A DNA stretch of 64,000 nt from a virus (Duplodnaviria; Caudoviricetes), in IMG/VR virus record IMGVR_UViG_3300003375_000020, positions 1-64,000 of that record; one strand, 5' to 3'. Below are positions 23,155 to 54,226 of this stretch, one piece after another. A program made the position numbers and the translations under genes. Every line of letters begins with the position of its first letter. Within the stretch, counting starts at the first letter, position 1. Below the pieces are notes generated by a model. The model did no database searches, was not told the DNA's origin, and saw only the letters and a list, made by a program, of their open reading frames with translations.

Positions 23155-23736
23155 ATGGCGATAGTATATCAGCATAAAAGAAAAGATACTGGAGAGATAT
23201 TCTATGTGGGAATAGGAAAAGAAGAGAGTAGAGCTTATGAATATGGTAGAAATTATCTATGGCAAAAAATTGTAGATGAAACTGAATATGATATTGAAAT
23301 AACTCATAGAGATATTATTTATGAAGAGGCTTGTTCAATAGAAAAATATATCATAGCTTTTTGGGGAAGAAAAAATTTAGGACTCGGTCCATTAACCAAT
23401 TTAACGGATGGCGGAGATACAACAGAGGGATATAGACATACAGAAAACACAAAAGAAAAAATAAGCAATACATTAATTGGCTTTAAACACTCTCAAGAAT
23501 CAATTCAAAAAATTGCGGATTCTCATAAAGAAGCGCCATTATCTAATTATCATAGATACAAAATAAGTATCGGAAATTCAAATAAGCCAAAATCAAACGA
23601 ACATAGAAAATCATTAAGTTTTGCTAAATTAGGAGTAAAACATAAGATTGTGATTTGCCCGTGTTGTAATAAAAGCGGGGGAATAGTTAATATGCATAGA
23701 TATCATTTTGAAAATTGTAAATACATAAAAAAATGA
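23155..23736 (+). mobile_element. Free-standing GIY-YIG-like homing endonuclease with NUMOD3 repeats
   Basis: IVYQH...EIFYVGIG; LTNLTDGG; HTENTKEKIS and HSQESIQKI repeats. Confidence 0.8.
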
Positions 23737-26477: not shown

Positions 26478-27413
26478 ATGAAAATAGGATTAATTAGCAT
26501 GCTAGGAAATGTTGGTACCACACTAAACTCTCAAGGTGGAGCGTATGGATTAATAGTAACTAGAATGCTTAAAGATAATCATCCGCAAGATGAAGTTATA
26601 GCGAACCCCGATCCAAAAGATTGGGGTTCTTTTGATATACTATACGATTGTGAAGGAGTCAATTTTGTAGCAGGATCTTTTAATATTCCTGGTGGACCAC
26701 GACCCATTCACAAAGAAAAAATGCAAGCCATTGCAGACTTTAAAGGAGTGCTTAGATTCTCTGATATTATATTTGACTATAACAAATTTAATGCTAGATT
26801 AAAAATAGAAAATGTGCAATATCCAGATGTTAATCATATCTCGTGGTATAATACTTTTTTATCACAAGGATTTAAATCTAAAAAAGCAGTGATTGGAGAT
26901 TCTCATGCATTATCAGTGTGGAGACCAAAACATACACTAGACTTTACTCCTGGTAGAACATTGTATGGATTTCTAAAAAGAGAATCTCCAGAATCGTATA
27001 ACGAAACATTCGATGATGTTACACTATATTTTGGAAATATTGATTTAAGATTTCATTTATATAGACAACAAAATCCAGAAGGCGCAACAAAAGAATTATT
27101 TGAAAGATACATTGATTTTGCAAGACAATTAAAAAATCCTACTTTAGTAGAACCTTTACCAATCGAGCATGAATCAAGAAAAATTCCTGGTACAGGATTA
27201 TATAAAAAGCAACCATTCTTTGGATCAAGAAATGAAAGAATGCGATTAAGACAAGTTGCAGTAGACGTATTAAGAAATTCTGGTTTTCCATTAATACAAT
27301 GGCCAGAAGAATGGATAGACGAAGATGGTACTAAAATGCTAGATATTCTAGAGTCTAAAAGTTCAGTGCATTTAAAACCGAAGAATTATCCATTTTTAAA
27401 AGAAATACTATGA
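26478..27413 (+). CDS. T4 beta-glucosyltransferase N-domain-like / SGNH-fold fusion, putative DNA base-modifying transferase
   Basis: N-terminus MKIGLISMLGNV...SFNIPGG resembles T4 BGT; C-half has VIGDSH, YFGNID and a terminal SVH (SGNH-like blocks). Confidence 0.5.
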   Translation: MKIGLISMLGNVGTTLNSQGGAYGLIVTRMLKDNHPQDEVIANPDPKDWGSFDILYDCEGVNFVAGSFNIPGGPRPIHKEKMQAIADFKGVLRFSDIIFDYNKFNARLKIENVQYPDVNHISWYNTFLSQGFKSKKAVIGDSHALSVWRPKHTLDFTPGRTLYGFLKRESPESYNETFDDVTLYFGNIDLRFHLYRQQNPEGATKELFERYIDFARQLKNPTLVEPLPIEHESRKIPGTGLYKKQPFFGSRNERMRLRQVAVDVLRNSGFPLIQWPEEWIDEDGTKMLDILESKSSVHLKPKNYPFLKEIL

Positions 27414-28318
27414 CATTTGAAATTACAACAGATGTAAGAAATAAAGACATTCCAGAAGGAATGAGTGTAGAACAGGCTAAACAATATTATTTAGATATGT
27501 ACGGAACAGGATTTGTTTCGAGAATGCCTAAAGTAATAATAGAACCATTTGAAGATAAGTTTATTGTTCGATGTGATTTATCTTTAGCAGGATTTAAAGC
27601 GTTTGCTGCAGAAAAAGTAATCGCAGAATGTCCTAAAGATACGTTTGTTTACGTAGCACCAAGAGTTGGTCACGCACCCGAAGCAATTGCGAATTTAGCT
27701 CAATTATATGGTAAAAAATGTGTATTCTTTGCTCCTGCTTCAAAAGAAGTTTCAAAGCATCAAGCAGTTGTAATGGCTTACGGAGCTGATCTAAGATTTG
27801 TTAAAACTCCTGCGATGCCGACAATTAATATTTACGCTAAAAGATGGGCAGAAAAAAATAATGCTCAATATTTAAATTTTGGTTTATCAGGAATTCCAGC
27901 AGTAACAGCCGGAATTGTAAATTTTGCTAATGGTATTCCAGAACCACCAGAATTTTGGTGTGCAGTATCAACAGGAACTATGATCAGAGGTTTACAAATT
28001 GGTTGGCCAAATGCTAAACCTTACGGTGTTGCGGTTGCAAGAAATATAAAGAAAGGCGAAATTGGTAGAGCGATTTTAGAAAGCGCAACAATACCATTTT
28101 TAAAACCGCTTAAAGCAGAATTACTTCCTCCGTTTCAAACAACTGCCACCTATGATGCCAAAGCATTCGATGTATTCAGAAGAAAAGCAAAAGCGGGTGC
28201 TTATTTTATTAATGTTGGTGCTGACGCTCAAATAGAAAAAAGAGTTAAAGAAGTAGATATGAAATCAGTAGATTCTCAAAGGGCTTGGGGAGATATGAGA
28301 GATTTAGAAAGAGCATAA
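27410..28318 (+). CDS. PLP-dependent fold-type II (PALP) enzyme
   Basis: AGFK Schiff-base Lys; VSTGT phosphate loop; TYDAKAF. Confidence 0.75.
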   Translation: MTFEITTDVRNKDIPEGMSVEQAKQYYLDMYGTGFVSRMPKVIIEPFEDKFIVRCDLSLAGFKAFAAEKVIAECPKDTFVYVAPRVGHAPEAIANLAQLYGKKCVFFAPASKEVSKHQAVVMAYGADLRFVKTPAMPTINIYAKRWAEKNNAQYLNFGLSGIPAVTAGIVNFANGIPEPPEFWCAVSTGTMIRGLQIGWPNAKPYGVAVARNIKKGEIGRAILESATIPFLKPLKAELLPPFQTTATYDAKAFDVFRRKAKAGAYFINVGADAQIEKRVKEVDMKSVDSQRAWGDMRDLERA

Positions 28319-28329
28319 AATAATGTAAT

Positions 28330-28512
28330 ATGCAAATAGGAACTATAATAATATCTGAACCATACATACAATCTGACTATGATGTATCTAAAAAAGTTTT
28401 ATATATAATGGAATCTAATATTAGAAGAATGAAGCATATGATAGATAATGGATTTTATGTAAGTGAATATTCAGAAAAAGCATGGCAACAATTTAAAGCA
28501 TTAAACGTATAA
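28330..28512 (+). CDS. Hypothetical protein
   Basis: 60-aa ORF, tightly packed with neighbours. Confidence 0.45.
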   Translation: MQIGTIIISEPYIQSDYDVSKKVLYIMESNIRRMKHMIDNGFYVSEYSEKAWQQFKALNV

Positions 28513-28513
28513 T

Positions 28514-28807
28514 ATGGCAACAGTAAAAAAACAAAGTATTTTACAACAAGCGCATGAAATAGTTTTTGAAAGAAATGAAGAGAAAGAACGCATGTACGGT
28601 GACTTTATAGAAGGCATGGAACAAACCGCCAGAATCGCATCAGAGATGTCCAGGAAAGAAATAACTACACAAGATGCTTATAATGTATTAATAGCATTAA
28701 AGCTATCCAGAGCGTCTTGGAATTACAAACAGGATAACTATTTAGACGCTTTAGCATACATGGCGTCATTAGATCAGTATTTAAACACAAAAAATAAAAT
28801 AAAATGA
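28514..28807 (+). CDS. DUF6378-like (nucleotide diphosphohydrolase-related) protein
   Basis: ILQQAHEIV...RMYGD...LKLSR...DNYLDALAY pattern. Confidence 0.7.
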   Translation: MATVKKQSILQQAHEIVFERNEEKERMYGDFIEGMEQTARIASEMSRKEITTQDAYNVLIALKLSRASWNYKQDNYLDALAYMASLDQYLNTKNKIK

Positions 28808-28956
28808 CAGTAGAAGAAAAAGCAGCAATTTATGATCAAATAGATCAATTTTTATCAGAATGTTATGAAGTAGATGAACAAGGAAATCCACTTGATGAAG
28901 ATATGGATTTAATTGTAATTGGTGAAGGAGTTGCTAATATAATGGGATATCTTTAA
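28804..28956 (+). CDS. Small acidic hypothetical protein (not in ORF track)
   Basis: ATGA overlap with upstream stop; 50 aa MTVEEKAAIYDQ...MGYL. Confidence 0.45.
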   Translation: MTVEEKAAIYDQIDQFLSECYEVDEQGNPLDEDMDLIVIGEGVANIMGYL

Positions 28957-28966
28957 AATAAATAAT

Positions 28967-29242
28967 ATGTGCGTAGTATCAATGATAGGTGATCATTATA
29001 ATCATAAATGGAATCAGCCTAATTATCAACAATATTTTACAAATATACATAACATTAGCAGAGAAGAATTTAATACTCTTAAAAAAGAAGTTGAAGAAAT
29101 GAAACAGCTTCTTATAAAAGCTAAAATTTATGATGAAAAAAATAATGAACCTAATTGTGAAATAGAGAACAAAATTGCAACTCTAAAAAAAATAGCGGAA
29201 TTAATGGGTGTAAATCTTAATGATGTTTTTAAAGAAAAATAA
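28967..29242 (+). CDS. Hypothetical coiled-coil protein
   Basis: 91-aa ORF. Confidence 0.5.
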   Translation: MCVVSMIGDHYNHKWNQPNYQQYFTNIHNISREEFNTLKKEVEEMKQLLIKAKIYDEKNNEPNCEIENKIATLKKIAELMGVNLNDVFKEK

Positions 29243-29247
29243 ATAAT

Positions 29248-29484
29248 ATGAATGAATTAGTTTCAAATGATGGTCAACTATTTGTTAAATTAGACCGAAC
29301 AGATGTATTACACATCGATGCCGGAAATTCTCCAGGTATGACTACGTATAAAGGAAAATTAAATTGGGAAGTAGAATATAATTATTTTTTAAAACCTGGT
29401 ACAGGATCTTTGGTTTTAAAAGTACCATTAACAGTATCTGATGAAGATATGATGAATAACTATACAAATTATATAATACACTAA
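29248..29484 (+). CDS. Hypothetical protein
   Basis: 78-aa ORF. Confidence 0.45.
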   Translation: MNELVSNDGQLFVKLDRTDVLHIDAGNSPGMTTYKGKLNWEVEYNYFLKPGTGSLVLKVPLTVSDEDMMNNYTNYIIH

Positions 29485-29485
29485 T

Positions 29486-30040
29486 ATGGAAATAAAACCA
29501 AAAGAAAGGACTTTGCATTTCGCAAAACAAGTAGATCAAGATAGTATTAATCTTTTAACTAAATCTATTTTAGAAATTAATGAAGACGATGAGTATTTAA
29601 TAAAGTTAGCAGGTATTAACGATTTAGTATACATTCCAAAACCCATTAAGATTTATATTGATTCTTACGGTGGAGCAGTGTATCAAATGTTTGGTTTATT
29701 GGGTGTGATAGAAAAATCAAAAGTACCAATACACACAATTGTAACAGGTTGCGCAATGAGTTGTGGATTCATGATCTCTATAACTGGACATAGACGTTTT
29801 GCTTATGATAAAGCTACTTTCTTATATCATCAAGTAAGTACAGGTTTTTGGGGAAAAGCTAAAGACATGGAAGAAGACTTAGCTGAAATGCTTCGTTTAC
29901 AAAAAATGATCGAAGATCAAACATTAGCAAAAACAAAATTAACAAAAAAACAATTAAAAGAGTGTTACGATGGTAAGAAAGATTGGTCTTTCAATGCAGA
30001 AGAAGCATTATCATATCAAATAATTGATGAAATAATATAA
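29486..30040 (+). CDS. clpP: ClpP-like serine protease subunit
   Basis: IYIDSYGG, AMSCG (catalytic Ser) and FLYHQ (His) motifs. Confidence 0.85.
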   Translation: MEIKPKERTLHFAKQVDQDSINLLTKSILEINEDDEYLIKLAGINDLVYIPKPIKIYIDSYGGAVYQMFGLLGVIEKSKVPIHTIVTGCAMSCGFMISITGHRRFAYDKATFLYHQVSTGFWGKAKDMEEDLAEMLRLQKMIEDQTLAKTKLTKKQLKECYDGKKDWSFNAEEALSYQIIDEII

Positions 30041-30041
30041 T

Positions 30042-30434
30042 ATGGAAATTTTAATTATTATTGGATATTTCTTTTTTACAACTTTTGCAATTTTTGGATT
30101 AATTAATTTTTTACATAATAGAAAAATAGACATGAATTTAACAAACGAATTTTACTCAATTAGAGAATGGGCACAAGATAAAGGCATTTATGATAAAGGA
30201 GATGCAAAGACTCAATACATTAAATTATTAGAAGAAACAGGTGAATTGGCGAAAGCAATTCTAAAAGAAGACGAAGAAGAATTTGTAGACGCTATTGGTG
30301 ATTGTGTGGTAGTACTTACCAATCTTGCTAAATTAAAAGGGTATAATATTGAAGATTGCATTAACTCTGCTTACGAAGTTATTGCTAAGAGAAAAGGAAC
30401 CATGCAAAACGGAAGTTTTGTTAAAGAATCTTAA
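30042..30434 (+). CDS. MazG-like nucleotide pyrophosphohydrolase
   Basis: KLLEETGELAKA...DAIGD motif; alternative start at ATG 30132. Confidence 0.85.
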   Translation: MEILIIIGYFFFTTFAIFGLINFLHNRKIDMNLTNEFYSIREWAQDKGIYDKGDAKTQYIKLLEETGELAKAILKEDEEEFVDAIGDCVVVLTNLAKLKGYNIEDCINSAYEVIAKRKGTMQNGSFVKES

Positions 30435-30435
30435 T

Positions 30436-30939
30436 ATGACAAAACAAAAAAGATTAGACATTGTTTTTTTAAACATAGCGAAAGAAGTATCTGCTCTATC
30501 TCACTGTGTTAGAGCTAAAGTTGGTTGCGTTATTGTTAAAGACGGTAACGTAATTAGCTTTGGTTATAACGGCACTCCTACTGGAATGGATAATTGTTGC
30601 GAAGATAAGTTGCGTATGAATGGCGATGAAGGAGGTTGGATCGATCCAGAAACCATTGAAGCTCAATACCCTTTTGAAGATGATCATGGAAGGTACAGAT
30701 TATTTTCTAAACCCGAAGTATTACACGCAGAATCAAATGCAATTCTTAAAGCAGCAAAAATGGGGTTTTCTACTAACGAAGCCACTATGTATTTAACTCT
30801 TTCTCCATGTATTGATTGCGCGAAACTTATTCTGCAATCGGGAATAAAAAAAGTTATATATTCTGAATTATTCTATCGAGATAATGGTAGTGTAGAATTT
30901 TTAAAACAATTTATTGAAGTAGAACACTATGAATTTTAG
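30436..30939 (+). CDS. dCMP deaminase
   Basis: HCVRAKVG, GYNG, HAESNA and SPCIDC motifs; ATG 30436 preferred as start. Confidence 0.92.
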   Translation: MTKQKRLDIVFLNIAKEVSALSHCVRAKVGCVIVKDGNVISFGYNGTPTGMDNCCEDKLRMNGDEGGWIDPETIEAQYPFEDDHGRYRLFSKPEVLHAESNAILKAAKMGFSTNEATMYLTLSPCIDCAKLILQSGIKKVIYSELFYRDNGSVEFLKQFIEVEHYEF

Positions 30940-31570
30940 TAACGCAACAGAAGCATTCGAATGGTTATTTCATCACATAGATATAGCTGGAGAAAGTTTC
31001 GCAGGCACAAAAGCAGTATTTAATCAATCTTTCATTTTATTAGATCCTCAAGATAAAATCATTACTACTCCTGAAAGAAAGTTCAATTTAGAATACGCAG
31101 AGTTTGAATGGAATTGGTATTTAAAAGGCAATCGCGATGCATCAGAAATTGCAGAAAGAGCAAAGATATGGAAACAGATGATGATTCCTGGCACCACAGA
31201 AGTCAATTCTAATTACGGATATTTTTGGAATTATAACGATCAACTAAAAAGAGTCGTAGAAGATCTTAAATCTAATCCAGAAACAAGAAGAGCAATCGTA
31301 GTACATTATTTGCCACACGAAATAGATCGGTACAAATACGATACTCCTTGCAACGATGTATTAAATTTCTACATTAGAAATAATAGATTAGATCTAACAG
31401 TATTCGCAAGAAGCATAGATTTAGTTTTTGGTTTTTGTAATGACCAATTTACTTTTGCAAAATTAATGGAGAAAGTAGCTTATGAATTAAAAATCCCGGT
31501 TGGAGAAATGAATTGGCTGATTACCAATCTCCATGTATACCCAAGACATTATAACTTACTAGAAAAATAA
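30929..31570 (+). CDS. Thymidylate-synthase-family enzyme, dCMP hydroxymethylase type (T4 gp42-like)
   Basis: Catalytic Cys in TPCN; RSIDLVFGFCND has Asp at the nucleotide-specificity position, as in T4 gp42 GFRND. Confidence 0.75.
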   Translation: MNFSNATEAFEWLFHHIDIAGESFAGTKAVFNQSFILLDPQDKIITTPERKFNLEYAEFEWNWYLKGNRDASEIAERAKIWKQMMIPGTTEVNSNYGYFWNYNDQLKRVVEDLKSNPETRRAIVVHYLPHEIDRYKYDTPCNDVLNFYIRNNRLDLTVFARSIDLVFGFCNDQFTFAKLMEKVAYELKIPVGEMNWLITNLHVYPRHYNLLEK

Positions 31571-31620: not shown

Positions 31621-32079
31621 ATGCAAGCATTCTGCGACCGAGAATTTCTCGAAGATCAATTATCACGTCTTACCCAAAAGAGTTACAATAAATTTCATTG
31701 GTGGCGCAGATACGAAATTAGAAAAGAACTAGACAAAAAAACTCCCCTTTACGAAAAGATTAGAAATGGTGATTACGATCATTCTGATTACCTTTATCAA
31801 ATGGAACACGAATTCTATTTGATGAAGGATAAACTAGTTGGTATTATCTATCCTGATGAGAGACATGATATTACTGGACTTTGTTTAGAACGTGCAAGAA
31901 GATTAAACGAAGATTATCAAAAGCACGAAAAGGAGCTCATGGCTAAGATCTATTCTGACTTTCGTAAAACATTCAACATTCAAAAAGAAGAACTAACCAA
32001 GATAATGGAAGACTTCGATGGCACACTATTGGACTTATACGATCACGTTAAAAAACTAAGTAAACATGAAAAAATATAG
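31621..32079 (+). CDS. Hypothetical protein
   Basis: 152-aa ORF. Confidence 0.55.
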   Translation: MQAFCDREFLEDQLSRLTQKSYNKFHWWRRYEIRKELDKKTPLYEKIRNGDYDHSDYLYQMEHEFYLMKDKLVGIIYPDERHDITGLCLERARRLNEDYQKHEKELMAKIYSDFRKTFNIQKEELTKIMEDFDGTLLDLYDHVKKLSKHEKI

Positions 32080-32650
32080 CAAATTAATTGTGCCCAAAGA
32101 TTCTGCGTGGGACAATACTAGATTTCAATGGGGAAGATATGTTAATTGGAGAATTAGATATTTTTTTCAAGGAGTTTGGAACATTATTAGATGGATCCCA
32201 ACAATATACAAAGATAAAGATTGGGATGATGCTTTCATTCTTATGATCTTACAAAAGAAGATAGAACACCAAAGAGCAGAATTGGTAAATGCTAATAGGC
32301 ACACTGATATCGACAATGATAATTTTTGGATGACAGTGGTTCTTAATTTGATAGACAAGGAACTTAACAGTTATTACGAAACGGAAAAATATAATTTTTG
32401 TAAAATTGAAGATAGTTTCGGTGAGCCTGATCAATACGGATCAAGAGAATGGAACATGATACTTACTGAAAATCGTTTGGATGAATATCTAAATTTATAT
32501 CCATCTGCTACAAGAAAAGTGATAAAAAAACACGGTAGAGAAAATGATACTGATTATCTTTCTTTATGTGTATGCATTTATAATCAAAGAAGGTGCAGAG
32601 ATTTAATATTTGAAATTTTAAAACAAAAATCAGCCAATTGGTGGGATTAA
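32066..32650 (+). CDS. Hypothetical protein
   Basis: 194-aa ORF ending in WWD. Confidence 0.55.
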   Translation: MKKYSKLIVPKDSAWDNTRFQWGRYVNWRIRYFFQGVWNIIRWIPTIYKDKDWDDAFILMILQKKIEHQRAELVNANRHTDIDNDNFWMTVVLNLIDKELNSYYETEKYNFCKIEDSFGEPDQYGSREWNMILTENRLDEYLNLYPSATRKVIKKHGRENDTDYLSLCVCIYNQRRCRDLIFEILKQKSANWWD

Positions 32651-43422: not shown

Positions 43423-44481
43423 ATGTCAGAAAATAAAATCCTTTTTATCTTAAAAAGAAAAGAAGACTATCATTCGGTTATAGACTCTCACATTGGCCTA
43501 AGTACAGGTCTTTATAATTCAGCAAATTTTATGAATGAAATGCTCCAAAAAGCAGGACGTAATAGTAAATTAGTTGTTGTTATAGATAATAATGATATAG
43601 ATAGAGAAGTTAATTTATTTAAGCCAACTCACGTTATTATAGAAGCTCTTTGGGTTGTTCCTAGTAAATTTAGTGTACTTTGTAAATTGCATCCTAATGT
43701 TAAATGGATTATCAGATTGCATAGTGAAGTTCCATTTTTAGCAAATGAAGGTATCGCATTTGATTGGATTGCAGACTATGCTAGATTTAACAATATTGTT
43801 ATTGCTGCTAATGCTCCAAGAGCTTTAAAAGAAGTAAGAATGTATGTTAAAAGAGTATTAGATTTAACTACTCAAGAAGTTGAAGATAAAATTATATACC
43901 TTCCAAATTTTTATCCACAAGAATATAAATCTAAGATTCTTGATAAGAAAAAAGATACTATAGATATAGGTTGTTTTGGAGCGGTAAGACCTTTAAAAAA
44001 TCACATGCTACAAGCAATTGCTGCAGTTAAATTTGCAGATAAAATAGGAAAGAAATTAAACTTCCATATAAACGCAGGTAGAATTGAAATGAAAGGAGAA
44101 CCTGTTCTTCATAATTTAAAAGGATTTTTTACTCAGTTATACCCAACTGGTCATAGATTAATAAATCATGATTGGCAACCTAGAGAAGAGTTTATTAAAA
44201 CATGTGCAGCGATGGATCTAGGAATGCAATGTTCATTTTCTGAAACTTTTAATATAGTTGGTGCTGATTTAATAAGTCAAGGCGTTCCTTTAATTGGATC
44301 AACAGAAATTCCATGGATAGATTCTACATGGTGTGCGAATCCTGTAGAAGTAGATGAGATATATGATGCTTTATTAAAAAGCTATAATATTTATAAGCTG
44401 AATGTATTTTTTAACAGATGGTATTTAAAAATGTACACTTCTAAAACTAGAAGAATCTGGAAAAGATACTTTAAAAAATAA
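43423..44481 (+). CDS. GT-B glycosyltransferase-like protein
   Basis: GCFGAVRPLKN; SFSETFNIVGADLISQGVPLI (GT4-like E-x7-E variant). Confidence 0.7.
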   Translation: MSENKILFILKRKEDYHSVIDSHIGLSTGLYNSANFMNEMLQKAGRNSKLVVVIDNNDIDREVNLFKPTHVIIEALWVVPSKFSVLCKLHPNVKWIIRLHSEVPFLANEGIAFDWIADYARFNNIVIAANAPRALKEVRMYVKRVLDLTTQEVEDKIIYLPNFYPQEYKSKILDKKKDTIDIGCFGAVRPLKNHMLQAIAAVKFADKIGKKLNFHINAGRIEMKGEPVLHNLKGFFTQLYPTGHRLINHDWQPREEFIKTCAAMDLGMQCSFSETFNIVGADLISQGVPLIGSTEIPWIDSTWCANPVEVDEIYDALLKSYNIYKLNVFFNRWYLKMYTSKTRRIWKRYFKK

Positions 44482-48474: not shown

Positions 48475-49956
48475 ATGATAGAAGGTTATATACCACAAAA
48501 GGACAGAAAAAAAATTCTGTTATTATGCGATGATATTAGAATGACAAGTGGAATTTCCACTATGGCAAGAGAAATTGTAGTTAATACTGCGCACGTTTTT
48601 AATTGGGCAAATTTAGGCGGCGCAATCAATCACCCAGATCAAGGAAAAAGATTAGATATCTGTGAAGATACTAATAAAATATTAGGAATTAATGATGCTT
48701 ATGTGTTCGTTTATCCAATCAATGGTTATGGTAGTCAAGAATTGGTTAGAAATCTAATCGAAATAGAAAAGCCAGATGCATTGATGATGTTCACTGATCC
48801 AAGGTATTGGACATGGTTATTTCAAATGGAGAACGAGATTAGAAAAATGATTCCTATGATCTATTTAAATATCTGGGATGATTTACCTGCGCCACTATAT
48901 AATAAAGCATATTATGAATCATGCGATGCTTTGTTAGCAATTTCAAAACAAACTAAAAATATCAATGATCTTGTTTTAGGAGAAAAAGCAAAAGATAAAG
49001 TAATTAAGTACATTCCACACGGAATTAACGAAAAACATTTTTATCCCATCGATCCAGAATATATGTTAGAAGACTATTTAAAAGTTCAAGACATGAAAAA
49101 AGATCTTTTTAAAGGAAAAGAGTACGAGTTTGTTTTATTCTATAATGCAAGAAACATTAGAAGAAAATGTGTTTCTGATTTAATTGCTGCATGGTCACAT
49201 TTTTGTGATGAGATTGGAGAAGAAAATGCTGCTAAATGCGCTTTATTGTTGCACACTCAAGCTTTAGATGAAAATGGCACAGATTTACCTGCAGTGATAA
49301 ATTTACTTTGTTCAGAAGATCATAAGAACGTCATTATTAATGATAGTAGACTTCCAGTAGATCAAATGAATTTAATGTATAATCTTTCTGACGCGGTGGC
49401 TTTAATATCTTCTAATGAAGGTTGGGGATTGAGTTTAACAGAAGGCATGATGTGTGGAAAACCAATCATTGCTACTGTAACTGGTGGAATGCAAGATCAA
49501 ATGAGATTTGAAGATGAAGATGGAAATTGGTTTACGCCGTCAAAAGAAATTCCTTCTAATCATTTTGGTACCTATAAAAAACACGGCAAATGGGCATTCC
49601 CAGTATTTCCTAGCAATATGAGTTTGGTAGGATCAATTCCAACTCCTTACATTTGGGATGATAGAGCAGATTTTAGAGATATTACTATTCAAATTCAAGA
49701 AGTGTATGCATTAAAAACTGATCAACCTAAATATGGTTCCTTAACTAGAGGTTTTGAAACATATGAAGATGTCTGTAAAGCTGCTAGAGAATGGGTTACA
49801 TCAGATGAATCAATGATGAGTGCGCGATTAATGGCTAAAAATGTAATTGAAGGCATCAACGAAACTTTTGATAGATGTAAACCAAGAAATAAATTCGAAT
49901 TCAATAAAATAGAAGATTTAAAACCAAAAAGTATACCACACCCTTTAACATATTAA
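48475..49956 (+). CDS. GT4-family glycosyltransferase
   Basis: YIPHGIN, RNIRRK and NEGWGLSLTEGMMCGKPII motifs. Confidence 0.85.
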   Translation: MIEGYIPQKDRKKILLLCDDIRMTSGISTMAREIVVNTAHVFNWANLGGAINHPDQGKRLDICEDTNKILGINDAYVFVYPINGYGSQELVRNLIEIEKPDALMMFTDPRYWTWLFQMENEIRKMIPMIYLNIWDDLPAPLYNKAYYESCDALLAISKQTKNINDLVLGEKAKDKVIKYIPHGINEKHFYPIDPEYMLEDYLKVQDMKKDLFKGKEYEFVLFYNARNIRRKCVSDLIAAWSHFCDEIGEENAAKCALLLHTQALDENGTDLPAVINLLCSEDHKNVIINDSRLPVDQMNLMYNLSDAVALISSNEGWGLSLTEGMMCGKPIIATVTGGMQDQMRFEDEDGNWFTPSKEIPSNHFGTYKKHGKWAFPVFPSNMSLVGSIPTPYIWDDRADFRDITIQIQEVYALKTDQPKYGSLTRGFETYEDVCKAAREWVTSDESMMSARLMAKNVIEGINETFDRCKPRNKFEFNKIEDLKPKSIPHPLTY

Positions 49957-49962
49957 TAGTCT

Positions 49963-51270
49963 ATGAAGCAGTACGCAGTTATATCGTGTCCAATTGATAC
50001 ATACTCAGGATACGGAGCAAGAAGTAGAGATTTTGTAAAAGCTCTTTACGAATTAAAAAAAGATGAATGGGAAATTGAAATTTTGCCTCAAAGATGGGGA
50101 TCAACTCCATGGGGATATATAGCAGACAATAAAAATGAATGGGGATGGATGATTCCTTTATTTAATAACTCAGGACAAATGAAAAAACAACCTGATTTTT
50201 GGTGTCAAATTACTGTTCCCAACGAATTTCAACCTGTTGGAAAGTACAATTTAGGACTAACGGCTGGTATAGAAACAACTATTTGTCACGCTAGTTGGAT
50301 TGATGGAATCAATCGAATGAATTTAACTTTAGTGTCTTCTGAACATGCAAAAAATGTTTTTAAACAAACAACCTTTCAAGAAAAAAATCCTCAAGGTCAA
50401 ATAACAAGAGAGATTAAATTAGAAAAGCCAGTAGATGTATTATTTGAAGGCGCAGATTTAAACAAATACTTTTTTATAGAAGACGACGCAATAGAAGGTA
50501 CTGATTTAGTTTTAAAGCTAGACGAAATTAAAGAGAGTTTTTGTTATTTAGTCGTAGGTCATTGGTTACAGGGAGATTTAGGAGAAGATAGAAAAAATAT
50601 AGGGTTAACAATTAAAACATTCTTAGAAACTTTTAAGAATAAAAAGAATAAACCCGCTATGGTACTTAAGATCTCAAGTGGCGGCGCAAGTATAATGGAT
50701 AGAGAAGCAATTTTAGAAAAGATTGATTCAATTAGAAAATCAATTGATTCTAAAGATTTACCAAGTCTATATTTACTTCATGGAGAATTAGATGATCAAG
50801 ATATGAATTATCTTTATAATCATGGAAAAATTAAAGCCATGGTTAGTTTAACTAAAGGCGAAGGATTTGGTAGACCTTTATTAGAGTTCAGCTTATCAAA
50901 GAAACCTATTATAGCAACAGCATACTCAGGTCATACAGATTTTTTATTTATGGAATACACAGCAATGGTAGGAGGTCAAGTAACTCAAATTCATCCATCC
51001 GCAGTAGTAGAAAATATGTTAATTCCAGAATCAGGATGGTTTTCTGCTGATATTAAACAAGCAGAATTTTATCTTAGAGATGTTTTTGAAAAATATCCTA
51101 AATATGTAGAGAAAGCAAAACAACAAGCTCATAAATCAAAAACAATGTTTTCTTTTGAAGAAATGAAAAATAAATTAGGTTTATATCTAGATAAAGTTCC
51201 TAAACAAGTTGGATTAAAATTACCAACCTTAAAAAAGATAGAACTTCCCACAATTAAAAAAGACGAATAA
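49963..51270 (+). CDS. GT4-like glycosyltransferase
   Basis: TYSGYG; KGEGFGRPLLEFSLSKKPIIAT. Confidence 0.85.
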   Translation: MKQYAVISCPIDTYSGYGARSRDFVKALYELKKDEWEIEILPQRWGSTPWGYIADNKNEWGWMIPLFNNSGQMKKQPDFWCQITVPNEFQPVGKYNLGLTAGIETTICHASWIDGINRMNLTLVSSEHAKNVFKQTTFQEKNPQGQITREIKLEKPVDVLFEGADLNKYFFIEDDAIEGTDLVLKLDEIKESFCYLVVGHWLQGDLGEDRKNIGLTIKTFLETFKNKKNKPAMVLKISSGGASIMDREAILEKIDSIRKSIDSKDLPSLYLLHGELDDQDMNYLYNHGKIKAMVSLTKGEGFGRPLLEFSLSKKPIIATAYSGHTDFLFMEYTAMVGGQVTQIHPSAVVENMLIPESGWFSADIKQAEFYLRDVFEKYPKYVEKAKQQAHKSKTMFSFEEMKNKLGLYLDKVPKQVGLKLPTLKKIELPTIKKDE

Positions 51271-51722
51271 TGATAGACACTACTTTAATGCTATGTCCTC
51301 TTTGTAAACAAGATGAATGTTGCAACATAGAACCAATAAATGAATTTCATAACAAGTATTCTTGTATTGCGTGTGGATTTGAAACAACCGATTTAATGAG
51401 AGAAGGTGAGTTTGATTTTTTTGCTTATGAAGAAGATGATGCTTTTCCCATGTTATATAAAGATATTAAACAAACAGATGAAATTAAAAGAGTTTGGTAT
51501 CCAATGACAATAAACATCAAAGGCAAAGGTACTGTTTATCCATTTGGAAAATTTGCAGATGATTGGCAATGGAGAGCAACTAAAAGTATTAGGTTAACAG
51601 AAGAAGAATTAAAATTACCTAAATACAAAGGACAATCACATAAGTCTGATGCATCTTCTACTCAAGATTTTGGAAGAGATTTTTACGCTGCGTGTGATTA
51701 TATAAATTTATTTGATATATGA
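51270..51722 (+). CDS. Hypothetical protein with N-terminal Zn ribbon
   Basis: CPLC...CIACG. Confidence 0.5.
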   Translation: MIDTTLMLCPLCKQDECCNIEPINEFHNKYSCIACGFETTDLMREGEFDFFAYEEDDAFPMLYKDIKQTDEIKRVWYPMTINIKGKGTVYPFGKFADDWQWRATKSIRLTEEELKLPKYKGQSHKSDASSTQDFGRDFYAACDYINLFDI

Positions 51723-52345
51723 ATAGAGTAAGTATCAGTTATGCTATTACAGCATGTAATGAACACATAGAATTAAAAAGATTATTAGATCAATTATTAT
51801 CTTATATTGAGGATAATGATGAAATAGTTGTACAATTAGATACAACAGCTACAGATGAAGTTATATCTACGGTGAAAGAATATTTTGATAGGGTTACATT
51901 TACTCAATATTCTTTGAATAATGATTTTGCATCATTTAAAAATAATTTAAAATCTAATTGTTCAAAAGAGTATATTTTCTTTATCGACGCAGATGAGTAT
52001 TTATCAAGTTCATTAATATCTCACTTAAAAACTATTTTAACAGAAAATAGGCCAATAGAATGTGTACACGTTCCAAGAGTTAATACTGTAACTGGATTGA
52101 CCAAAGAACACATCGAAAAGTGGAGATGGAATGTAAATAAAAAAGGGTACATCAATTGGCCAGATTATCAGACAAGGATAATTAAAAATCAACCATCTCT
52201 AAAATGGGAAGGTAAAGTTCATGAAAGAATTTGTGGTTGTCAAATTTATACTTACTTACCAGATTCTGATGAAACATGGGCATTATATCATCCTAAAGAT
52301 ATTAAACGACAAGAAAAACAAAACAGTTTATACGATACAATATGA
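51719..52345 (+). CDS. GT2-family glycosyltransferase
   Basis: ISYAITACNE, FIDADE and WPDYQTRI motifs. Confidence 0.85.
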   Translation: MNRVSISYAITACNEHIELKRLLDQLLSYIEDNDEIVVQLDTTATDEVISTVKEYFDRVTFTQYSLNNDFASFKNNLKSNCSKEYIFFIDADEYLSSSLISHLKTILTENRPIECVHVPRVNTVTGLTKEHIEKWRWNVNKKGYINWPDYQTRIIKNQPSLKWEGKVHERICGCQIYTYLPDSDETWALYHPKDIKRQEKQNSLYDTI

Positions 52346-53325
52346 GTGAAAAAGTTGCGTTAATAACAGGAATAAATGGACAAGACGGATCTTATTTGAC
52401 TGAATATCTTATTGGCTTAGGGTATGAAGTTCATGGTACTTTAAAAAGAAATTCTGTCGCTGAAAATCAAACTTCAAGAATAGAAGATGATTATCCATAC
52501 ATTAAAAACAATTTGCACTATGCAGATATGACTGATCTTTCTTCTTTAATTAGAGTAATTAATAAAGTTGAACCAGACGAGATATATAATTTAGCAGCGC
52601 AGTCTCATGTTAGAATTTCTTTTGATCAACCTATATATACAGCTAACGCAACAGGTTTAGGTGTTCTAAACATGTTAGAAGCAATAAAAGAAATTAATCC
52701 TAAAATAAAATTGTATCAAGCTTCTTCATCTGAAATGTTTGGTAACTCAATAGATTCAGACGGATTTCAAAGAGAGACCACTCCAATGAATCCTGTATCA
52801 CCATATGGATGCGCTAAATTATTTGGTTATAACATAGCAAGAAATTATAGAAATTCTTATGGATTGTTCGTGTCTAATGGAATTTTATTTAATCATGAAT
52901 CTCCAAGAAGAGGTACTAATTTTGTAACAAATAAAGTTTGTAAAGAAGCTGCTAAAATTAAATATATATCGTCAAATAAATTACTATTAGGAAATTTAGA
53001 TGCCGCAAGAGATTGGGGCCACGCTAAGGATTATGTAAAAGCAATGCATATGATTTTACAGTTAGATCAACCAGACGATTTTGTATGTGCTACAGGAATT
53101 TCCCATACAGTAAGAGAATTATGTGAATTAGCATTTAATGAAATTGGATTAGATTATAGAAAATGGGTTGATATTGATGAAAAATTTCTAAGACCCGAAG
53201 AACTTAAATCTTTAAAAGGTGATGCTTCAAAATTAAAAGCCGCCACAGGATGGGAACCAAAATACGATTTTGAAAGTATGATAAAAGAAATGATCGATTA
53301 TTGGGTAAGAGAATATGCATTTTAA
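52342..53325 (+). CDS. gmd: GDP-mannose 4,6-dehydratase
   Basis: GINGQDGSY, NLAAQSHV, SSSEMFG and FNHESPRRG motifs. Confidence 0.95.
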   Translation: MSEKVALITGINGQDGSYLTEYLIGLGYEVHGTLKRNSVAENQTSRIEDDYPYIKNNLHYADMTDLSSLIRVINKVEPDEIYNLAAQSHVRISFDQPIYTANATGLGVLNMLEAIKEINPKIKLYQASSSEMFGNSIDSDGFQRETTPMNPVSPYGCAKLFGYNIARNYRNSYGLFVSNGILFNHESPRRGTNFVTNKVCKEAAKIKYISSNKLLLGNLDAARDWGHAKDYVKAMHMILQLDQPDDFVCATGISHTVRELCELAFNEIGLDYRKWVDIDEKFLRPEELKSLKGDASKLKAATGWEPKYDFESMIKEMIDYWVREYAF

Positions 53326-53326
53326 T

Positions 53327-54226
53327 ATGAAAAAATTAATTACTGGTGGAACTGGATTAATAGGATCTGCTTTTGAAGAAGGAGAAAAAGTTGGATCTAA
53401 ATATAATTTAGTTAGTTTATTTGATACTGGATTAATGTTTAGAGATTACAAACCAGACGTTGTAATTCACTGCGCGGCCAAAGTAGGTGGTGTAGGCGCA
53501 AATATGAATTATCCAGCAGAATTCTATTATAAAAATATTATGATGAATACAAACATCATAGATACGTGCTATAGAAGAGAAGTAAAAAAATTAGTTTGCT
53601 TTTTATCAACTTGTGTATTTCCAAATGATGTTGAATATCCTTTAGATGAAACTAAAATACATTTAGGAGAACCACATTTTACTAATGCTCCTTATGCTTA
53701 TGCTAAGAGAATGGCTGATGTACAAATTCAAGCTTACAATAAACAATATGATACCAAATATTTTTCTGTTATTCCTTGCAATGTTTATGGTCCAAACGAT
53801 AATTACAATTTAGATAACGGTCACGTTATACCAACATTAATTCACAAGTGTTATTTAGCGAAACAAAATAATACACCATTTGAAGTTTGGGGTGATGGAA
53901 CACCATTAAGAGAATTTATATTTTCTAAAGACGTTGCGAATATTGTGGATTTATTACTAGAAAAGTATGAGGGAACTGATCCTGTCATTATTTCTAATCC
54001 TACTGAGTATACTATCAAACAAGTTGTAGATCTTATTGTTGAGCATCTGGGCTTCGATGGAGAAGTAAAATGGTTAACTGATAAACCAAATGGACAATAT
54101 AGAAAACCTTCAAGCAATAAAAAATTATTAAGCATAATAGGTGAATATAATTTTACCACCCTAGAAATAGGTTTAAAAGAATCAATAGATTGGTTTATAT
54201 TAAATTATCCAAAGATTAGAAAATAA
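53327..54226 (+). CDS. fcl: GDP-L-fucose synthase
   Basis: HCAAKVGG, STCVFP, YAYAKR, NVYGPNDN and WGDGTPLREF motifs. Confidence 0.93.
   Translation: MKKLITGGTGLIGSAFEEGEKVGSKYNLVSLFDTGLMFRDYKPDVVIHCAAKVGGVGANMNYPAEFYYKNIMMNTNIIDTCYRREVKKLVCFLSTCVFPNDVEYPLDETKIHLGEPHFTNAPYAYAKRMADVQIQAYNKQYDTKYFSVIPCNVYGPNDNYNLDNGHVIPTLIHKCYLAKQNNTPFEVWGDGTPLREFIFSKDVANIVDLLLEKYEGTDPVIISNPTEYTIKQVVDLIVEHLGFDGEVKWLTDKPNGQYRKPSSNKKLLSIIGEYNFTTLEIGLKESIDWFILNYPKIRK

What the first reader, a model, noticed from the sequence alone, without database searches (positions are those of the whole stretch)
26478..31570. Candidate new cytosine hypermodification pathway: dCMP hydroxymethylase + PLP enzyme + BGT-like/SGNH transferase + nucleotide-pool sanitisers
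Seen: one operon-like run encodes a BGT-N/SGNH fusion, a fold-II PLP enzyme, a DUF6378-like protein, MazG, dCMP deaminase and a TS-family enzyme with Asp at the specificity site. Established: T4 makes 5hmC with gp42 and glucosylates it. In ViI and M6 phages, PLP enzymes decarboxylate amino acids attached to 5hmU, using a 5hmU kinase and aGPT-PPlase. No such kinase or aGPT-PPlase is recognisable in this window. Inference: 5hmC is acylated or aminoacylated by the SGNH-fold enzyme and then tailored by the PLP enzyme, giving an amine-bearing cytosine.
Basis: partly seen in the sequence, partly recalled or inferred. Interest (0 to 1): 0.82.

Follow-up and report, generated by a model that had tools for sequence, protein, structure and literature searches.

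The report
Phage kit for decorating hydroxymethylcytosine DNA
An uncultured large phage carries the T4-type enzyme that makes hydroxymethylcytosine, next to an unstudied two-part enzyme and a vitamin-B6 enzyme related to those that trim amino acids hung on thymine in other phages, so its DNA probably carries a decorated cytosine that nobody has described chemically.

Summary
Bases 26478-31570 form one co-oriented run with six relevant genes:
- a 311-aa protein (ORF1) with a T4 beta-glucosyltransferase-like N-domain and an SGNH-fold C-domain
- a fold-II PLP enzyme
- DUF6378
- MazG
- dCMP deaminase
- a thymidylate-synthase homologue with the Asp143/Cys146/Asp169/Asp177 signature of T4 gp42

What the tools added:
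- The PLP enzyme falls in the same PHROG as M6 gp52, a proven decarboxylase of amino-acid:base conjugates in DNA.
- ORF1 always sits with a gp42-type gene: 40 of 40 relatives with enough sequence, several unrelated phage backbones, and Aeromonas phages 44RR/31/25, which have gp42 but no glucosyltransferase.
- A third gene, "X", looks like an amino-acid:DNA transferase and keeps a Glu...Cys pair. Elsewhere it is fused to ORF1 or to the gp42-type enzyme. A near-complete relative encodes it 115 kb from the run. It is absent from this 53%-complete contig.

Best reading: a kinase-free, amino-acid-type hypermodification of 5-hydroxymethylcytosine. ORF1 probably takes the place of the 5-hmdU DNA kinase. 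The chemistry is inferred, not shown. This scan flagged the same cassette in at least 20 other genomes. I found no published description.

The parts
26478..27413 (+). ORF1, 311 aa. An N-domain like that of T4 beta-glucosyltransferase (BGT, residues 1-130, invariant Asp100) is joined to an SGNH-fold C-domain (130-309) with Ser142, Gly159, Asn187 and His298. Proposed role: the enzyme that acts on the 5-hydroxymethyl group of cytosine in DNA.
   Evidence: Model pLDDT 88. SGNH fold at Z 10-12 and by Foldseek. Conserved residues. hhalign to T4 BGT residues 1-124, E 6e-5, standing alone among 95 controls. phrog_13881, function unknown. Structural family members include Aeromonas phage 31 ORF233c and Tenacibaculum phage PTm1 ORF-050.
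27410..28318 (+). Fold-II PLP enzyme, 302 aa, of the M6 gp52 family (phrog_7093). Lys63 is the likely Schiff-base lysine. Proposed role: decarboxylase of an amino acid attached to the modified base.
   Evidence: Foldseek E 1e-11 to fold-II PLP enzymes. phrog_7093 E 1.9e-46, and M6 gp52 itself scores 2e-159 to that PHROG. Lys63 aligns with gp52 Lys36, and the C-terminal PF..YDxKAW..FWN motif is shared. hhalign to gp52 E 2.9e-4. The start overlaps the ORF1 stop by 4 bases.
28514..28807 (+). DUF6378 protein, 97 aa, present in 39 of 40 relatives. Function unknown. Possibly a nucleotide-pool protein such as a partner or form of a dCTP-removing pyrophosphatase.
   Evidence: Pfam PF19905 at 48 bits, above its cut-off of 27. 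Conservation. In locus L093 the syntenic position holds a PRA-PH/MazG-like plus dGTP_diPhyd_N protein.
29486..30040 (+). ClpP-like protease, 184 aa. It is interspersed in the run but is probably not part of the pathway, since few relatives have it here.
   Evidence: Pfam CLP_protease E 4e-24. Present at this position only in a minority of loci.
30042..30434 (+). MazG-type nucleoside-triphosphate pyrophosphohydrolase, 130 aa. Proposed role: dCTP/dUTP clearance, analogous to T4 gp56.
   Evidence: Pfam MazG at 33 bits, above its cut-off of 22. PHROG MazG-like pyrophosphatase E 5e-32. Present in 19 of 40 relatives, and some others carry a dUTPase here instead.
30436..30939 (+). dCMP deaminase, 167 aa counted from the ATG at 30436. 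The mechanical ORF starts at a TTG at 30349 and overlaps MazG.
   Evidence: Pfam dCMP_cyt_deam_1 E 1e-24. Translation shows the Met at codon 30. Present in 40 of 40 relatives.
30929..31570 (+). Thymidylate-synthase homologue, 213 aa. Predicted 5-hydroxymethyl-dCMP synthase of the T4 gp42 type.
   Evidence: Best solved relative is T4 gp42 (1b49), E 1.7e-17. Residues at E. coli ThyA positions 143/146/169/177 are D/C/D/D, as in T4 gp42. Controls: M6 dUMP hydroxymethylase is D/C/D/N and 44RR td has N at 177. All 72 TS genes found next to ORF1 homologues share the signature. The rule for these residues comes from PMC13326640.

Best explanation
The run is the core of a system that replaces cytosine with 5-hydroxymethylcytosine (5hmC) and then converts 5hmC in DNA into an amino-acid-derived, probably amine-bearing base.

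Before replication (inferred from family membership):
- MazG, and perhaps DUF6378, remove dCTP.
- The gp42-type enzyme turns dCMP into 5-hydroxymethyl-dCMP. Kinases then make the triphosphate, and the phage family-A polymerase incorporates it.
- The dCMP deaminase feeds the thymidylate branch.

After replication (inferred from homology, gene linkage and fusions):
- ORF1 binds 5hmC in DNA through its glucosyltransferase-like N-domain. The invariant Asp100 lies next to the position of the BGT catalytic base.
- ORF1 then uses its SGNH Ser-His site on the hydroxymethyl group. The most likely reaction is O-acylation, which turns the hydroxyl into a leaving group. The 5-hmdU DNA kinase does this job in thymidine pathways.
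- The AADT-like protein X, with its Glu...Cys pair, replaces that group with an amino acid. X is encoded elsewhere in the genome, in the part this contig lacks.
- The PLP enzyme removes the alpha-carboxyl and leaves an amine.

Shown here: the folds, the conserved residues, the homologies, the co-occurrence and the gene fusions. Not shown: any enzymatic step, the donor, the amino acid, or the final base.
For: 1. TS specificity. The residue signature is D143/C146/D169/D177, the same as T4 gp42, and the control enzymes behave as expected. PMC13326640 gives the rule: Asp177 means dCMP, an acidic residue at 143 means a hydroxymethyl product, and Asn169 marks 5-hydroxy-dCMP synthases.

2. PLP enzyme. 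It has the fold-II structure and falls in the same PHROG as M6 gp52. Its Lys63 aligns with gp52 Lys36. gp52 and ViI gp226 are purified, proven decarboxylases of amino-acid:nucleobase conjugates in DNA (PMC8989533). A homologous PLP domain is fused to a ParB-DNA methylase in Erythrobacter phage R6L.

3. ORF1. It has the SGNH fold with an intact Ser/Gly/Asn/His set. Its N-domain matches the BGT N-domain well above 95 control proteins.

4. Linkage within the lineage. Of 40 related loci with at least 6 kb downstream of ORF1, the gp42-type TS is present in 40, dCMP deaminase in 40, DUF6378 in 39 and PLP in 34. Some of these loci come from the same contig, so they are not all independent.

5. Linkage across backbones.
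- A complete 43-kb T7-like genome reads TS, dNMP kinase, deaminase, primase-helicase, ORF1, X, PLP, ThyX, PolA.
- Loci L092-L094 read TS, ORF1, PLP, X.
- T4-like Aeromonas phages 44RR, 31 and 25 also carry ORF1. Petrov et al. list them as having gene 42 but no glucosyltransferase (PMC2993671).

6. Fusions.
- Eight cluster representatives are ORF1-X fusions. ORF1 aligns over its full length in seven of them and over its SGNH half (134-304) in the eighth, with E from 1e-25 to 5e-47.
- The clade that lacks PLP has TS-X fusions of 595-604 aa.
- In 44RR, ORF1 is fused to a C-terminal domain with a weak match to the helical domain of the 5-hmdU DNA kinase (E 7e-4).

7. Protein X.
- Glu301 and Cys305 are nearly invariant. 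This matches the essential Glu and Cys of AADT M6 gp51 and ViI gp247.
- hhalign places that motif on the corresponding motifs of M6 gp51 and gp55.
- The nearest ESM-Atlas clusters carry HMUDK_hel or ADDT domains (score 0.96).
- In the 174-kb relative, X lies beside an HhH-GPD protein and a probable paralogue.
Against: - No chemistry is shown. No virion DNA from any carrier of this cassette has been analysed, as far as I could find.
- X is absent from the window and from the whole 83-kb contig. Its presence in this phage is inferred from one near-complete relative.
- The link between X and AADT is weak by sequence. Pfam ADDT hits 1 of 73 members at E 1e-3, and HMUDK_hel and ADDT models hit no X gene directly. 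hhalign gives only E 0.09 and 0.005.
- The BGT N-domain match is moderate, at 59-64% probability.
- SGNH enzymes are mostly hydrolases, and the Asp of the usual DxxH block is missing (Ser or Gln at position -3).
- Acetate as a leaving group on DNA has no precedent.
- TS-X fusions could instead mean that X works on the mononucleotide.
- Tenacibaculum phage PTm1 has an ORF1 homologue but no clear gp42-type gene.
- The PLP enzyme scores below the Pfam PALP cut-off.
Confidence: 0.55

Rival explanations
1. ORF1 alone puts an acyl or aminoacyl ester on 5hmC as the lasting modification, the PLP enzyme tailors that ester, and no amino-acid:DNA transferase is needed.
For: The window and its 83-kb contig have ORF1 and PLP but no X. 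Most relatives keep ORF1 and PLP adjacent without X between them. SGNH domains such as OatA and PatB do work as O-acyltransferases through an acyl-serine intermediate, and both appear among the fold matches. An amino acid linked through a side-chain carboxyl (Asp or Glu) would still offer a free alpha-carboxyl and amine to a PLP decarboxylase.
Against: ORF1-X and TS-X fusions tie X to the pathway. A near-complete relative does encode X, and this contig is only 53% complete. An alpha-carboxyl ester cannot be decarboxylated. Esters on DNA would be labile.
Confidence: 0.15
2. The pathway works on free nucleotides rather than on DNA. ORF1, X and PLP would remodel 5-hydroxymethyl-dCMP or its triphosphate before polymerisation, as phage SP15 does for its uracil derivative.
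For: X is fused directly to the mononucleotide enzyme (TS) in one clade. The genes sit among nucleotide-pool genes (MazG, deaminase, and a dNMP kinase in the T7-like genome).
Against: The characterised relatives (M6 gp52, ViI gp226 and the AADTs) all act on polymeric DNA. The ORF1 N-domain resembles a DNA-acting enzyme. A homologous PLP domain is fused to a ParB-DNA methylase.
Confidence: 0.1
3. Only the gp42-type pathway concerns DNA, and the virion DNA carries plain 5hmC or a sugar from the glycosyltransferases elsewhere in the window. ORF1 would be an esterase and the PLP protein an amino-acid enzyme used for host metabolism or surface-glycan remodelling. Their position would reflect an early-gene hot-spot.
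For: The run is a variable region that also takes up a ClpP-like protease, a homing endonuclease, a lipoprotein, a dUTPase and a flavodoxin-like gene. SGNH proteins are usually esterases. The window holds a large sugar-nucleotide and glycosyltransferase cluster at 48-64 kb.
Against: ORF1 stays with a gp42-type TS in several unrelated backbones and in different gene orders. ORF1-X and TS-X fusions exist. The PLP enzyme belongs to the DNA-hypermodification family rather than a metabolic one. ORF1 resembles the BGT N-domain.
Confidence: 0.12
4. The TS homologue makes something other than 5-hydroxymethyl-dCMP, such as 5-methyl-dCMP or 5-hydroxy-dCMP, and the downstream enzymes act on that base.
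For: RB69 gp48 was long annotated as a dCMP hydroxymethylase but in fact makes 5-hydroxy-dCMP. Signature residues are correlative. The window protein is short, at 213 aa against 246 for gp42.
Against: Asp169 is kept. All tested 5-hydroxy-dCMP synthases have Asn there. Position 143 is acidic, as in hydroxymethylases, not bulky and hydrophobic as in methyl-forming enzymes.
Confidence: 0.08

Closest known systems
Thymidine hypermodification pathways of phages M6, ViI, PaMx11, SP10 and PhiW-14: dUMP hydroxymethylase, 5-hmdU DNA kinase, amino-acid:DNA transferase (AADT, also called aGPT-PPlase) and PLP decarboxylase (PMC8989533, PMC5889632)
   Same: Both start from a TS-family hydroxymethylase that supplies a hydroxymethyl-pyrimidine. 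The PLP enzyme is in the same PHROG as M6 gp52, with the aldimine lysine aligned. An AADT-like protein with the Glu...Cys pair is genetically tied to the system. dCMP deaminase and NTP pyrophosphatases lie alongside.
   Different: The base is cytosine (Asp177 TS) rather than uracil. No P-loop 5-hmdU DNA kinase was found. A BGT-N/SGNH chimera sits where the kinase would be, and it is fused to X, or in 44RR to a domain that weakly matches HMUDK_hel, much as the kinase is fused to its helical domain. X is too diverged to reach the Pfam ADDT or HMUDK_hel cut-offs. The product is unknown.
T-even phage 5hmC pathway: T4 gp42, gp56 dCTPase, cd deaminase and alpha/beta-glucosyltransferases
   Same: The TS homologue has gp42-type residues. 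A dCMP deaminase and an all-alpha NTP pyrophosphatase are present. The ORF1 N-domain aligns with residues 1-124 of T4 beta-glucosyltransferase, with an invariant Asp beside the catalytic Asp100.
   Different: The phage is not T4-like. It has a family-A polymerase, a DnaB-type helicase and GroES/GroEL. The UDP-glucose-binding half of the glucosyltransferase is replaced by an SGNH domain, so glucosylation by ORF1 is not expected.
SGNH/GDSL O-acyltransferases and esterases, such as the OatA C-domain, PatB, Ape1 and E. coli TesA
   Same: The fold matches (Z 10-12), and the block I Ser, block II Gly, block III Asn and block V His are present.
   Different: The Asp of the DxxH block is absent. The domain is fused to a DNA-glucosyltransferase-like N-domain. 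It sits in a nucleotide and DNA-modification context. No SGNH enzyme is known to act on DNA.
5-hydroxy-dCMP synthase plus arabinosyltransferase systems of RB69 and DLP3 (PMC13326640)
   Same: A TS homologue with Asp177 and an acidic residue at 143 makes a modified dCMP that is then decorated after replication.
   Different: Those enzymes have Asn at position 169, whereas this one keeps Asp. Their decoration is glycosyl, not amino-acid-type.

Membership tests
T4 gp42-type 5-hydroxymethyl-dCMP synthase (TS family) | TS fold with the catalytic Cys (ThyA Cys146) | tested here: met
   Pfam Thymidylat_synt E 3e-26. Cys141 aligns with gp42 Cys148.
T4 gp42-type 5-hydroxymethyl-dCMP synthase (TS family) | Asp at ThyA position 177, giving dCMP rather than dUMP specificity | tested here: met
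   The GFCND motif aligns with GFRND of gp42. The control dUMP enzymes M6 gp58 and 44RR td have Asn.
T4 gp42-type 5-hydroxymethyl-dCMP synthase (TS family) | Acidic residue at ThyA position 143 (hydroxymethyl rather than methyl product) and Asp kept at 169 (Asn marks 5-hydroxy-dCMP synthases) | tested here: met
   Asp at both positions. The rule comes from PMC13326640.
T4 gp42-type 5-hydroxymethyl-dCMP synthase (TS family) | Produces 5-hydroxymethyl-dCMP | not testable with these tools
   Needs expression and LC-MS.
SGNH/GDSL hydrolase superfamily (ORF1 C-domain) | Flavodoxin-like SGNH fold | tested here: met
   VIA Z 10-12, rmsd about 3 A, 140-163 residues aligned over model residues 130-309. 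Foldseek probability 1.00.
SGNH/GDSL hydrolase superfamily (ORF1 C-domain) | Block I Ser, block II Gly, block III Asn and block V His | tested here: met
   Ser142, Gly159 and His298 are invariant and Asn187 is at least 90% conserved across 25 sequences down to 27% identity. Their positions relative to strands and helices fit the blocks.
SGNH/GDSL hydrolase superfamily (ORF1 C-domain) | Asp three residues before the block V His (DxxH) | tested here: not met
   Position 295 is Ser or Gln. The invariant Glu292 might substitute for it.
T4 beta-glucosyltransferase (GT-B DNA glucosyltransferase) | N-terminal acceptor-side domain with the catalytic Asp100 | tested here: inconclusive
   hhalign probability 59-64%, E 6e-5 to 9e-5, over ORF1 1-131 against BGT 1-124. 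It was the only outlier among 95 control proteins. The invariant ORF1 Asp100 falls one column from BGT Asp100. Asp100 as catalytic residue is cited in bioRxiv 10.1101/2023.12.21.572611. The whole-protein structural match is weak (Foldseek E 4e-3).
T4 beta-glucosyltransferase (GT-B DNA glucosyltransferase) | C-terminal Rossmann domain that binds UDP-glucose | tested here: not met
   The C-terminal half is SGNH-fold, so ORF1 is not a member of this family.
M6 gp52 / ViI gp226 PLP-dependent decarboxylases of amino-acid:nucleobase conjugates | Fold-type II (tryptophan-synthase-beta-like) PLP fold | tested here: met
   Foldseek E 1e-11 to 1e-9, TM 0.6-0.67. Pfam PALP scores 22.6 bits, below its cut-off of 35.
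M6 gp52 / ViI gp226 PLP-dependent decarboxylases of amino-acid:nucleobase conjugates | Sequence membership and the Schiff-base lysine | tested here: met
   phrog_7093 E 1.9e-46, and M6 gp52 scores 2e-159 to the same PHROG. Invariant Lys63 aligns with gp52 Lys36. The STG loop aligns with SSG, and the C-terminal motif is shared.
M6 gp52 / ViI gp226 PLP-dependent decarboxylases of amino-acid:nucleobase conjugates | Decarboxylates a base-linked amino acid in DNA | not testable with these tools
   Needs a defined substrate and enzyme assay.
Amino-acid:DNA transferase (AADT, aGPT-PPlase; Pfam ADDT) | A member encoded in this window or contig | tested here: not met
   The X profile, PF18723 and PF18724 find nothing in the 83-kb contig. 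The contig is 53% complete.
Amino-acid:DNA transferase (AADT, aGPT-PPlase; Pfam ADDT) | Protein X of relatives matches the family model and has the essential Glu and Cys | tested here: inconclusive
   Glu301 and Cys305 are nearly invariant and are placed on the gp51 and gp55 motifs by hhalign, at E 0.09 and 0.005. Pfam ADDT hits 1 of 73 members. ESM-Atlas neighbours carry HMUDK_hel or ADDT.
5-hmdU DNA kinase (P-loop kinase plus HMUDK_hel) | P-loop kinase domain near the modification genes | tested here: not met
   PF18723 has no hit in the contig. The genes around X in the 174-kb relative have no Walker A motif. The two ORFs downstream of the TS have no P-loop.
MazG / dCMP deaminase | Pfam models above their cut-offs | tested here: met
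   MazG 33.2 bits against a cut-off of 22. dCMP_cyt_deam_1 86.6 bits against a cut-off of 25.

The most novel reading that the evidence does not exclude
ORF1 is the first SGNH-fold enzyme that works on DNA. In this reading it is a glucosyltransferase-derived, base-recognising module that O-acylates 5-hydroxymethylcytosine. That step replaces the ATP-dependent kinase of thymidine pathways, and an AADT-like enzyme and a PLP decarboxylase then build a previously unknown amine-bearing cytosine. The system would be widespread in aquatic phages of several unrelated lineages.
Probability: 0.3. Interest if true: 0.85.

Novelty: new variant of a known kind. Interest (0 to 1): 0.72.

Why it matters
All known amino-acid or polyamine hypermodifications of phage DNA sit on thymine, and the known decorations of hydroxymethylcytosine are sugars. 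A cytosine version would add a new natural DNA base. If ORF1 activates the hydroxymethyl group by acyl transfer, it would also add a new way to activate a base for group transfer and a new job for the SGNH fold.

Such bases determine which restriction, CRISPR and glycosylase defences a phage escapes. They also interfere with sequencing and cloning of environmental phage DNA. Enzymes that act specifically on 5hmC are useful reagents for epigenetic mapping.

The cassette is testable now. Cultured Aeromonas phages 44RR, 31 and 25 carry the ORF1 family together with gene 42.

Tried and rejected
- Sequence searches of ORF1, the PLP protein and X against PDB chains, as single sequences and as profiles, gave nothing useful.
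- The ESM Atlas search with the ORF1 N-domain gave no usable hit.
- Pfam scans of the ORF1 N-domain, of X and of the two ORFs downstream of the TS found nothing even at lax thresholds.
- hhalign of X against the C-terminal domain of 44RR ORF233c showed no similarity. The two fused domains are therefore not demonstrably the same family.
- Pfam HMUDK_hel and ADDT models did not hit X in four genomes that contain it.
- The search for longer, fused relatives of ORF1 in the word-indexed database found only one Aeromonas-phage-type protein. The ORF1-X fusions came only from the exhaustive profile search with X.
- The 174-kb relative at first seemed to lack the TS gene. This is a contig-end effect: the contig stops 264 bases after DUF6378 and its ends do not overlap.
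- Tenacibaculum phage PTm1 has an ORF1 homologue. Its only TS-like match is very weak and has an internal stop. This is unresolved.
- The promoter and terminator scan found no more sites than expected and nothing that splits the run.
- No complex prediction was run, because I make no binding claim.

Full report
**Setting**

The window is the first 64 kb of an 83-kb IMG/VR viral contig that CheckV rates as about 53% complete. G+C is about 30%. The phage is not T4-like. Upstream of the finding it encodes a RecA-like protein, a 5'-3' exonuclease, a DnaB-type helicase, both ribonucleotide reductase subunits, a family-A DNA polymerase, a NUMOD3 homing endonuclease, Hsp20, GroES and GroEL. Downstream lie a tRNA/tmRNA region and a large sugar-nucleotide and glycosyltransferase cluster.

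**Observation**

- The TS-family protein (30929-31570) is closest to T4 gp42 among solved structures (E 1.7e-17).
- MazG and the dCMP deaminase pass their Pfam cut-offs, and so does DUF6378.
- The deaminase probably starts at the ATG at 30436, two bases after the MazG stop.
- A ClpP-like protease and several small ORFs are interspersed in the run.

**What the TS homologue makes**

Lee et al. (NAR 2026, PMC13326640) summarise and extend the residue rules for this family, in E. coli ThyA numbering:

- Asp at 177 selects dCMP.
- An acidic residue at 143 goes with a hydroxymethyl product rather than a methyl product.
- Asn at 169 marks the newly found 5-hydroxy-dCMP synthases.

The window protein reads D143/C146/D169/D177, exactly as T4 gp42 does. 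In the same alignment the M6 dUMP hydroxymethylase reads D/C/D/N, and the 44RR thymidylate synthase has Asn at 177. All 72 TS genes I found beside ORF1 homologues share the gp42 signature. I therefore read the protein as a 5-hydroxymethyl-dCMP synthase. This rests on residues, not on an assay.

**ORF1**

ORF1 has no Pfam family and belongs to a PHROG of unknown function. A model built on 25 homologues has mean pLDDT 88.

- Residues 130-309 match SGNH esterases and acyltransferases at Z 10-12 (Foldseek agrees).
- The four name-giving residues are conserved down to 27% identity: Ser142 in GDSH, Gly159, Asn187 in GNID, and His298 in SVH.
- The Asp of the usual DxxH block is missing.
- Residues 1-131 align with residues 1-124 of T4 beta-glucosyltransferase (hhalign E 6e-5, probability 64%).
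- In a control against 95 proteins from T4, 44RR, R6L and the window, that enzyme was the only non-family protein above 4% probability.
- The invariant Asp100 of ORF1 falls one column from Asp100 of the glucosyltransferase. That residue is treated as its catalytic residue in bioRxiv 10.1101/2023.12.21.572611, citing Lariviere 2003.

The SGNH half is firm and the BGT half is moderately supported.

**PLP enzyme**

The model (pLDDT 90) matches fold-II PLP enzymes. The decisive point is family membership.

- The protein hits phrog_7093 at E 1.9e-46.
- M6 gp52 hits the same PHROG over its full length at E 2e-159.
- In a joint alignment the invariant Lys63 falls on gp52 Lys36. Lee et al. propose that lysine as the one forming the internal aldimine.
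- The C-terminal motif PF..YDxKAW..FWN is shared. hhalign to gp52 gives E 2.9e-4.
- M6 gp52 and ViI gp226 were purified and shown to decarboxylate amino acids attached to the base in DNA (PMC8989533).
- A homologous PLP domain sits inside a ParB-DNA-methylase fusion protein in Erythrobacter phage R6L.

**Linkage**

More than 80 viral contigs share the order GroEL, ORF1, PLP, DUF6378, (MazG or dUTPase), deaminase, TS. Among the 40 loci with at least 6 kb downstream of ORF1, counts are TS 40, deaminase 40, DUF6378 39, PLP 34 and MazG 19. Some loci come from the same contig, so these are not 40 independent cases.

The stronger evidence comes from unrelated phage backbones:

- A complete 43-kb T7-like genome reads TS(D177), dNMP kinase, deaminase, T7-type primase-helicase, ORF1, X, PLP, ThyX, PolA. 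Its separate ThyX shows that the TS homologue is not needed for dTMP.
- Loci L092-L094 read TS, ORF1, PLP, X, in a different setting.
- T4-like Aeromonas phages 44RR, 31 and 25 and their relatives carry ORF1 as the first third of a 795-aa protein. Petrov et al. single out exactly these phages as having genes 42 and 56 but no glucosyltransferase (PMC2993671). 44RR does have a gp42-type gene with the D/C/D/D signature.

**The third gene, X**

A protein of about 340-390 aa with no Pfam or PHROG family co-occurs with ORF1 and PLP in L090-L094, L045 and L054. In the six-locus clade that lacks PLP, X forms the C-terminal half of a 595-604-aa protein whose N-terminal half is the TS enzyme.

An exhaustive profile search found 168 cluster representatives. 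Eight of the long ones are ORF1-X fusions. ORF1 aligns over its whole length in seven of them and over its SGNH half (134-304) in the eighth, with E from 1e-25 to 5e-47.

Evidence on what X is:

- Glu301 and Cys305 are nearly invariant. Clade-2 aGPT-PPlases (AADTs) have a conserved Cys with a neighbouring Glu, both essential in M6 gp51 and ViI gp247.
- hhalign places this motif on the corresponding motifs of M6 gp51 and gp55, though weakly (E 0.09 and 0.005).
- The nearest ESM-Atlas clusters carry HMUDK_hel or ADDT domains (score 0.96).
- Pfam ADDT hits only 1 of 73 members.

X is absent from the window's contig. The 174-kb near-complete relative encodes it about 115 kb from ORF1 and PLP, beside an HhH-GPD protein and a likely paralogue. 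That region has no counterpart in the 83 kb available here. It probably lies in the missing half of this genome, but that is an inference.

**Mechanism**

The parts list parallels the thymidine pathways: a hydroxymethylase, an activating enzyme, an AADT and a PLP decarboxylase. The one missing part is the P-loop 5-hmdU DNA kinase, for which I found no candidate.

ORF1 is the one constant partner. It is fused to X, or in 44RR to a domain with a weak HMUDK_hel match (E 7e-4). This mirrors the way the kinase domain is fused to its helical domain.

My best reading is that ORF1 recognises 5hmC in DNA through the BGT-like half and acylates the hydroxyl through the SGNH Ser-His site, making a leaving group. 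X then installs an amino acid through the exocyclic-methylene route described for AADTs. The PLP enzyme decarboxylates it. Clades without PLP would stop at the amino-acid adduct.

This reading is inferred. The donor, the amino acid and the final base are all unknown, and acyl activation of a DNA base has no precedent.

**Novelty**

Full-text searches that paired hydroxymethylcytosine with SGNH, GDSL, PLP/hypermodification or aGPT-PPlase found no description of such a system. Notes from this scan show the same cassette flagged in at least 20 other genomes, and follow-up readings there are similar to mine. I treat those as leads only.

I class the finding as a new variant of a known kind: pyrimidine hypermodification through a hydroxymethyl intermediate.

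Noticed in passing
window 48475-63713: A large co-oriented sugar cluster: two GT1-family glycosyltransferases, GDP-mannose 4,6-dehydratase, three epimerase/reductase genes, a DegT-type aminotransferase and a GT11 fucosyltransferase-like gene. A weak glycosyltransferase PHROG hit lies at 43423-44481. The cluster could remodel host surface glycans, or it could glycosylate DNA as a second decoration of 5hmC.
   Followed up: no
window 26478-27413 compared with L052, L053, L075 and L082: In the closest relatives the flanking genes (GroEL, PLP, ClpP, MazG, deaminase, TS) are 95-99% identical to the window, but ORF1 is only 64% identical. ORF1 alone appears to have been swapped by recombination. The PLP gene likewise comes in two deeply diverged lineages (84-98% and 37-40% identity) within otherwise syntenic genomes.
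   Followed up: partly
L112 7667-13087 (G001, contig positions about 115.7-121.1 kb): In the 174-kb relative, X lies in a minus-strand run with a 413-aa acidic protein, a 281-aa HhH-GPD protein, a 165-aa protein and a 334-aa protein that shares X-like motifs and is a probable paralogue. This resembles the paired aGPT-PPlase genes of thymidine-modifying phages.
   Followed up: partly
L096 4399-8379 (Aeromonas phage 44RR ORF234c and ORF233c): The ORF1-containing 795-aa protein of 44RR lies directly after a sodium:solute symporter family gene (Pfam SSF E 6e-53). A phage-encoded importer beside the putative DNA-modifying enzyme might supply the group that gets attached.
   Followed up: no
L097 3819-6239 (Erythrobacter phage vB_EliS_R6L gp1): An 807-aa fusion protein combines a ParB-like domain, an N6/N4 DNA methylase, a gp52-type PLP domain (Pfam PALP 40.6 bits, phrog_7093 E 1e-37) and a C-terminal phrog_12517 domain. 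A PAPS-reductase-like gene lies nearby. It may be another uncharacterised DNA-modification enzyme.
   Followed up: no
L102 6560-7579 (Tenacibaculum phage PTm1 ORF-050): A full-length ORF1 homologue (TM 0.78) sits among ribonucleotide reductase genes, one of them annotated with an intein splicing domain. No clear gp42-type TS was found in the 225-kb genome. This may be an exception to the ORF1-gp42 rule.
   Followed up: partly
window 23155-23736; L034-L036 about 9342; L009 8955-11853: The run is a hot-spot for insertions. A NUMOD3 homing endonuclease lies upstream in the window, and one sits between ORF1 and PLP in some relatives. Other relatives carry a lipoprotein gene between ORF1 and PLP, and a dUTPase plus a flavodoxin-like NAD(P)H dehydrogenase before the deaminase.
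   Followed up: no
window 26603-26629: An 11-bp G+C-rich hairpin followed by a T-run, resembling a terminator, lies on the + strand inside the ORF1 coding sequence. It may be chance or an internal attenuator.
   Followed up: no
window 31621-32650: Two conserved ORFs (152 and 194 aa) directly follow the TS gene in many relatives. They have no Pfam or PHROG family and no P-loop. Their function is unknown, and they could belong to the same module.
   Followed up: partly
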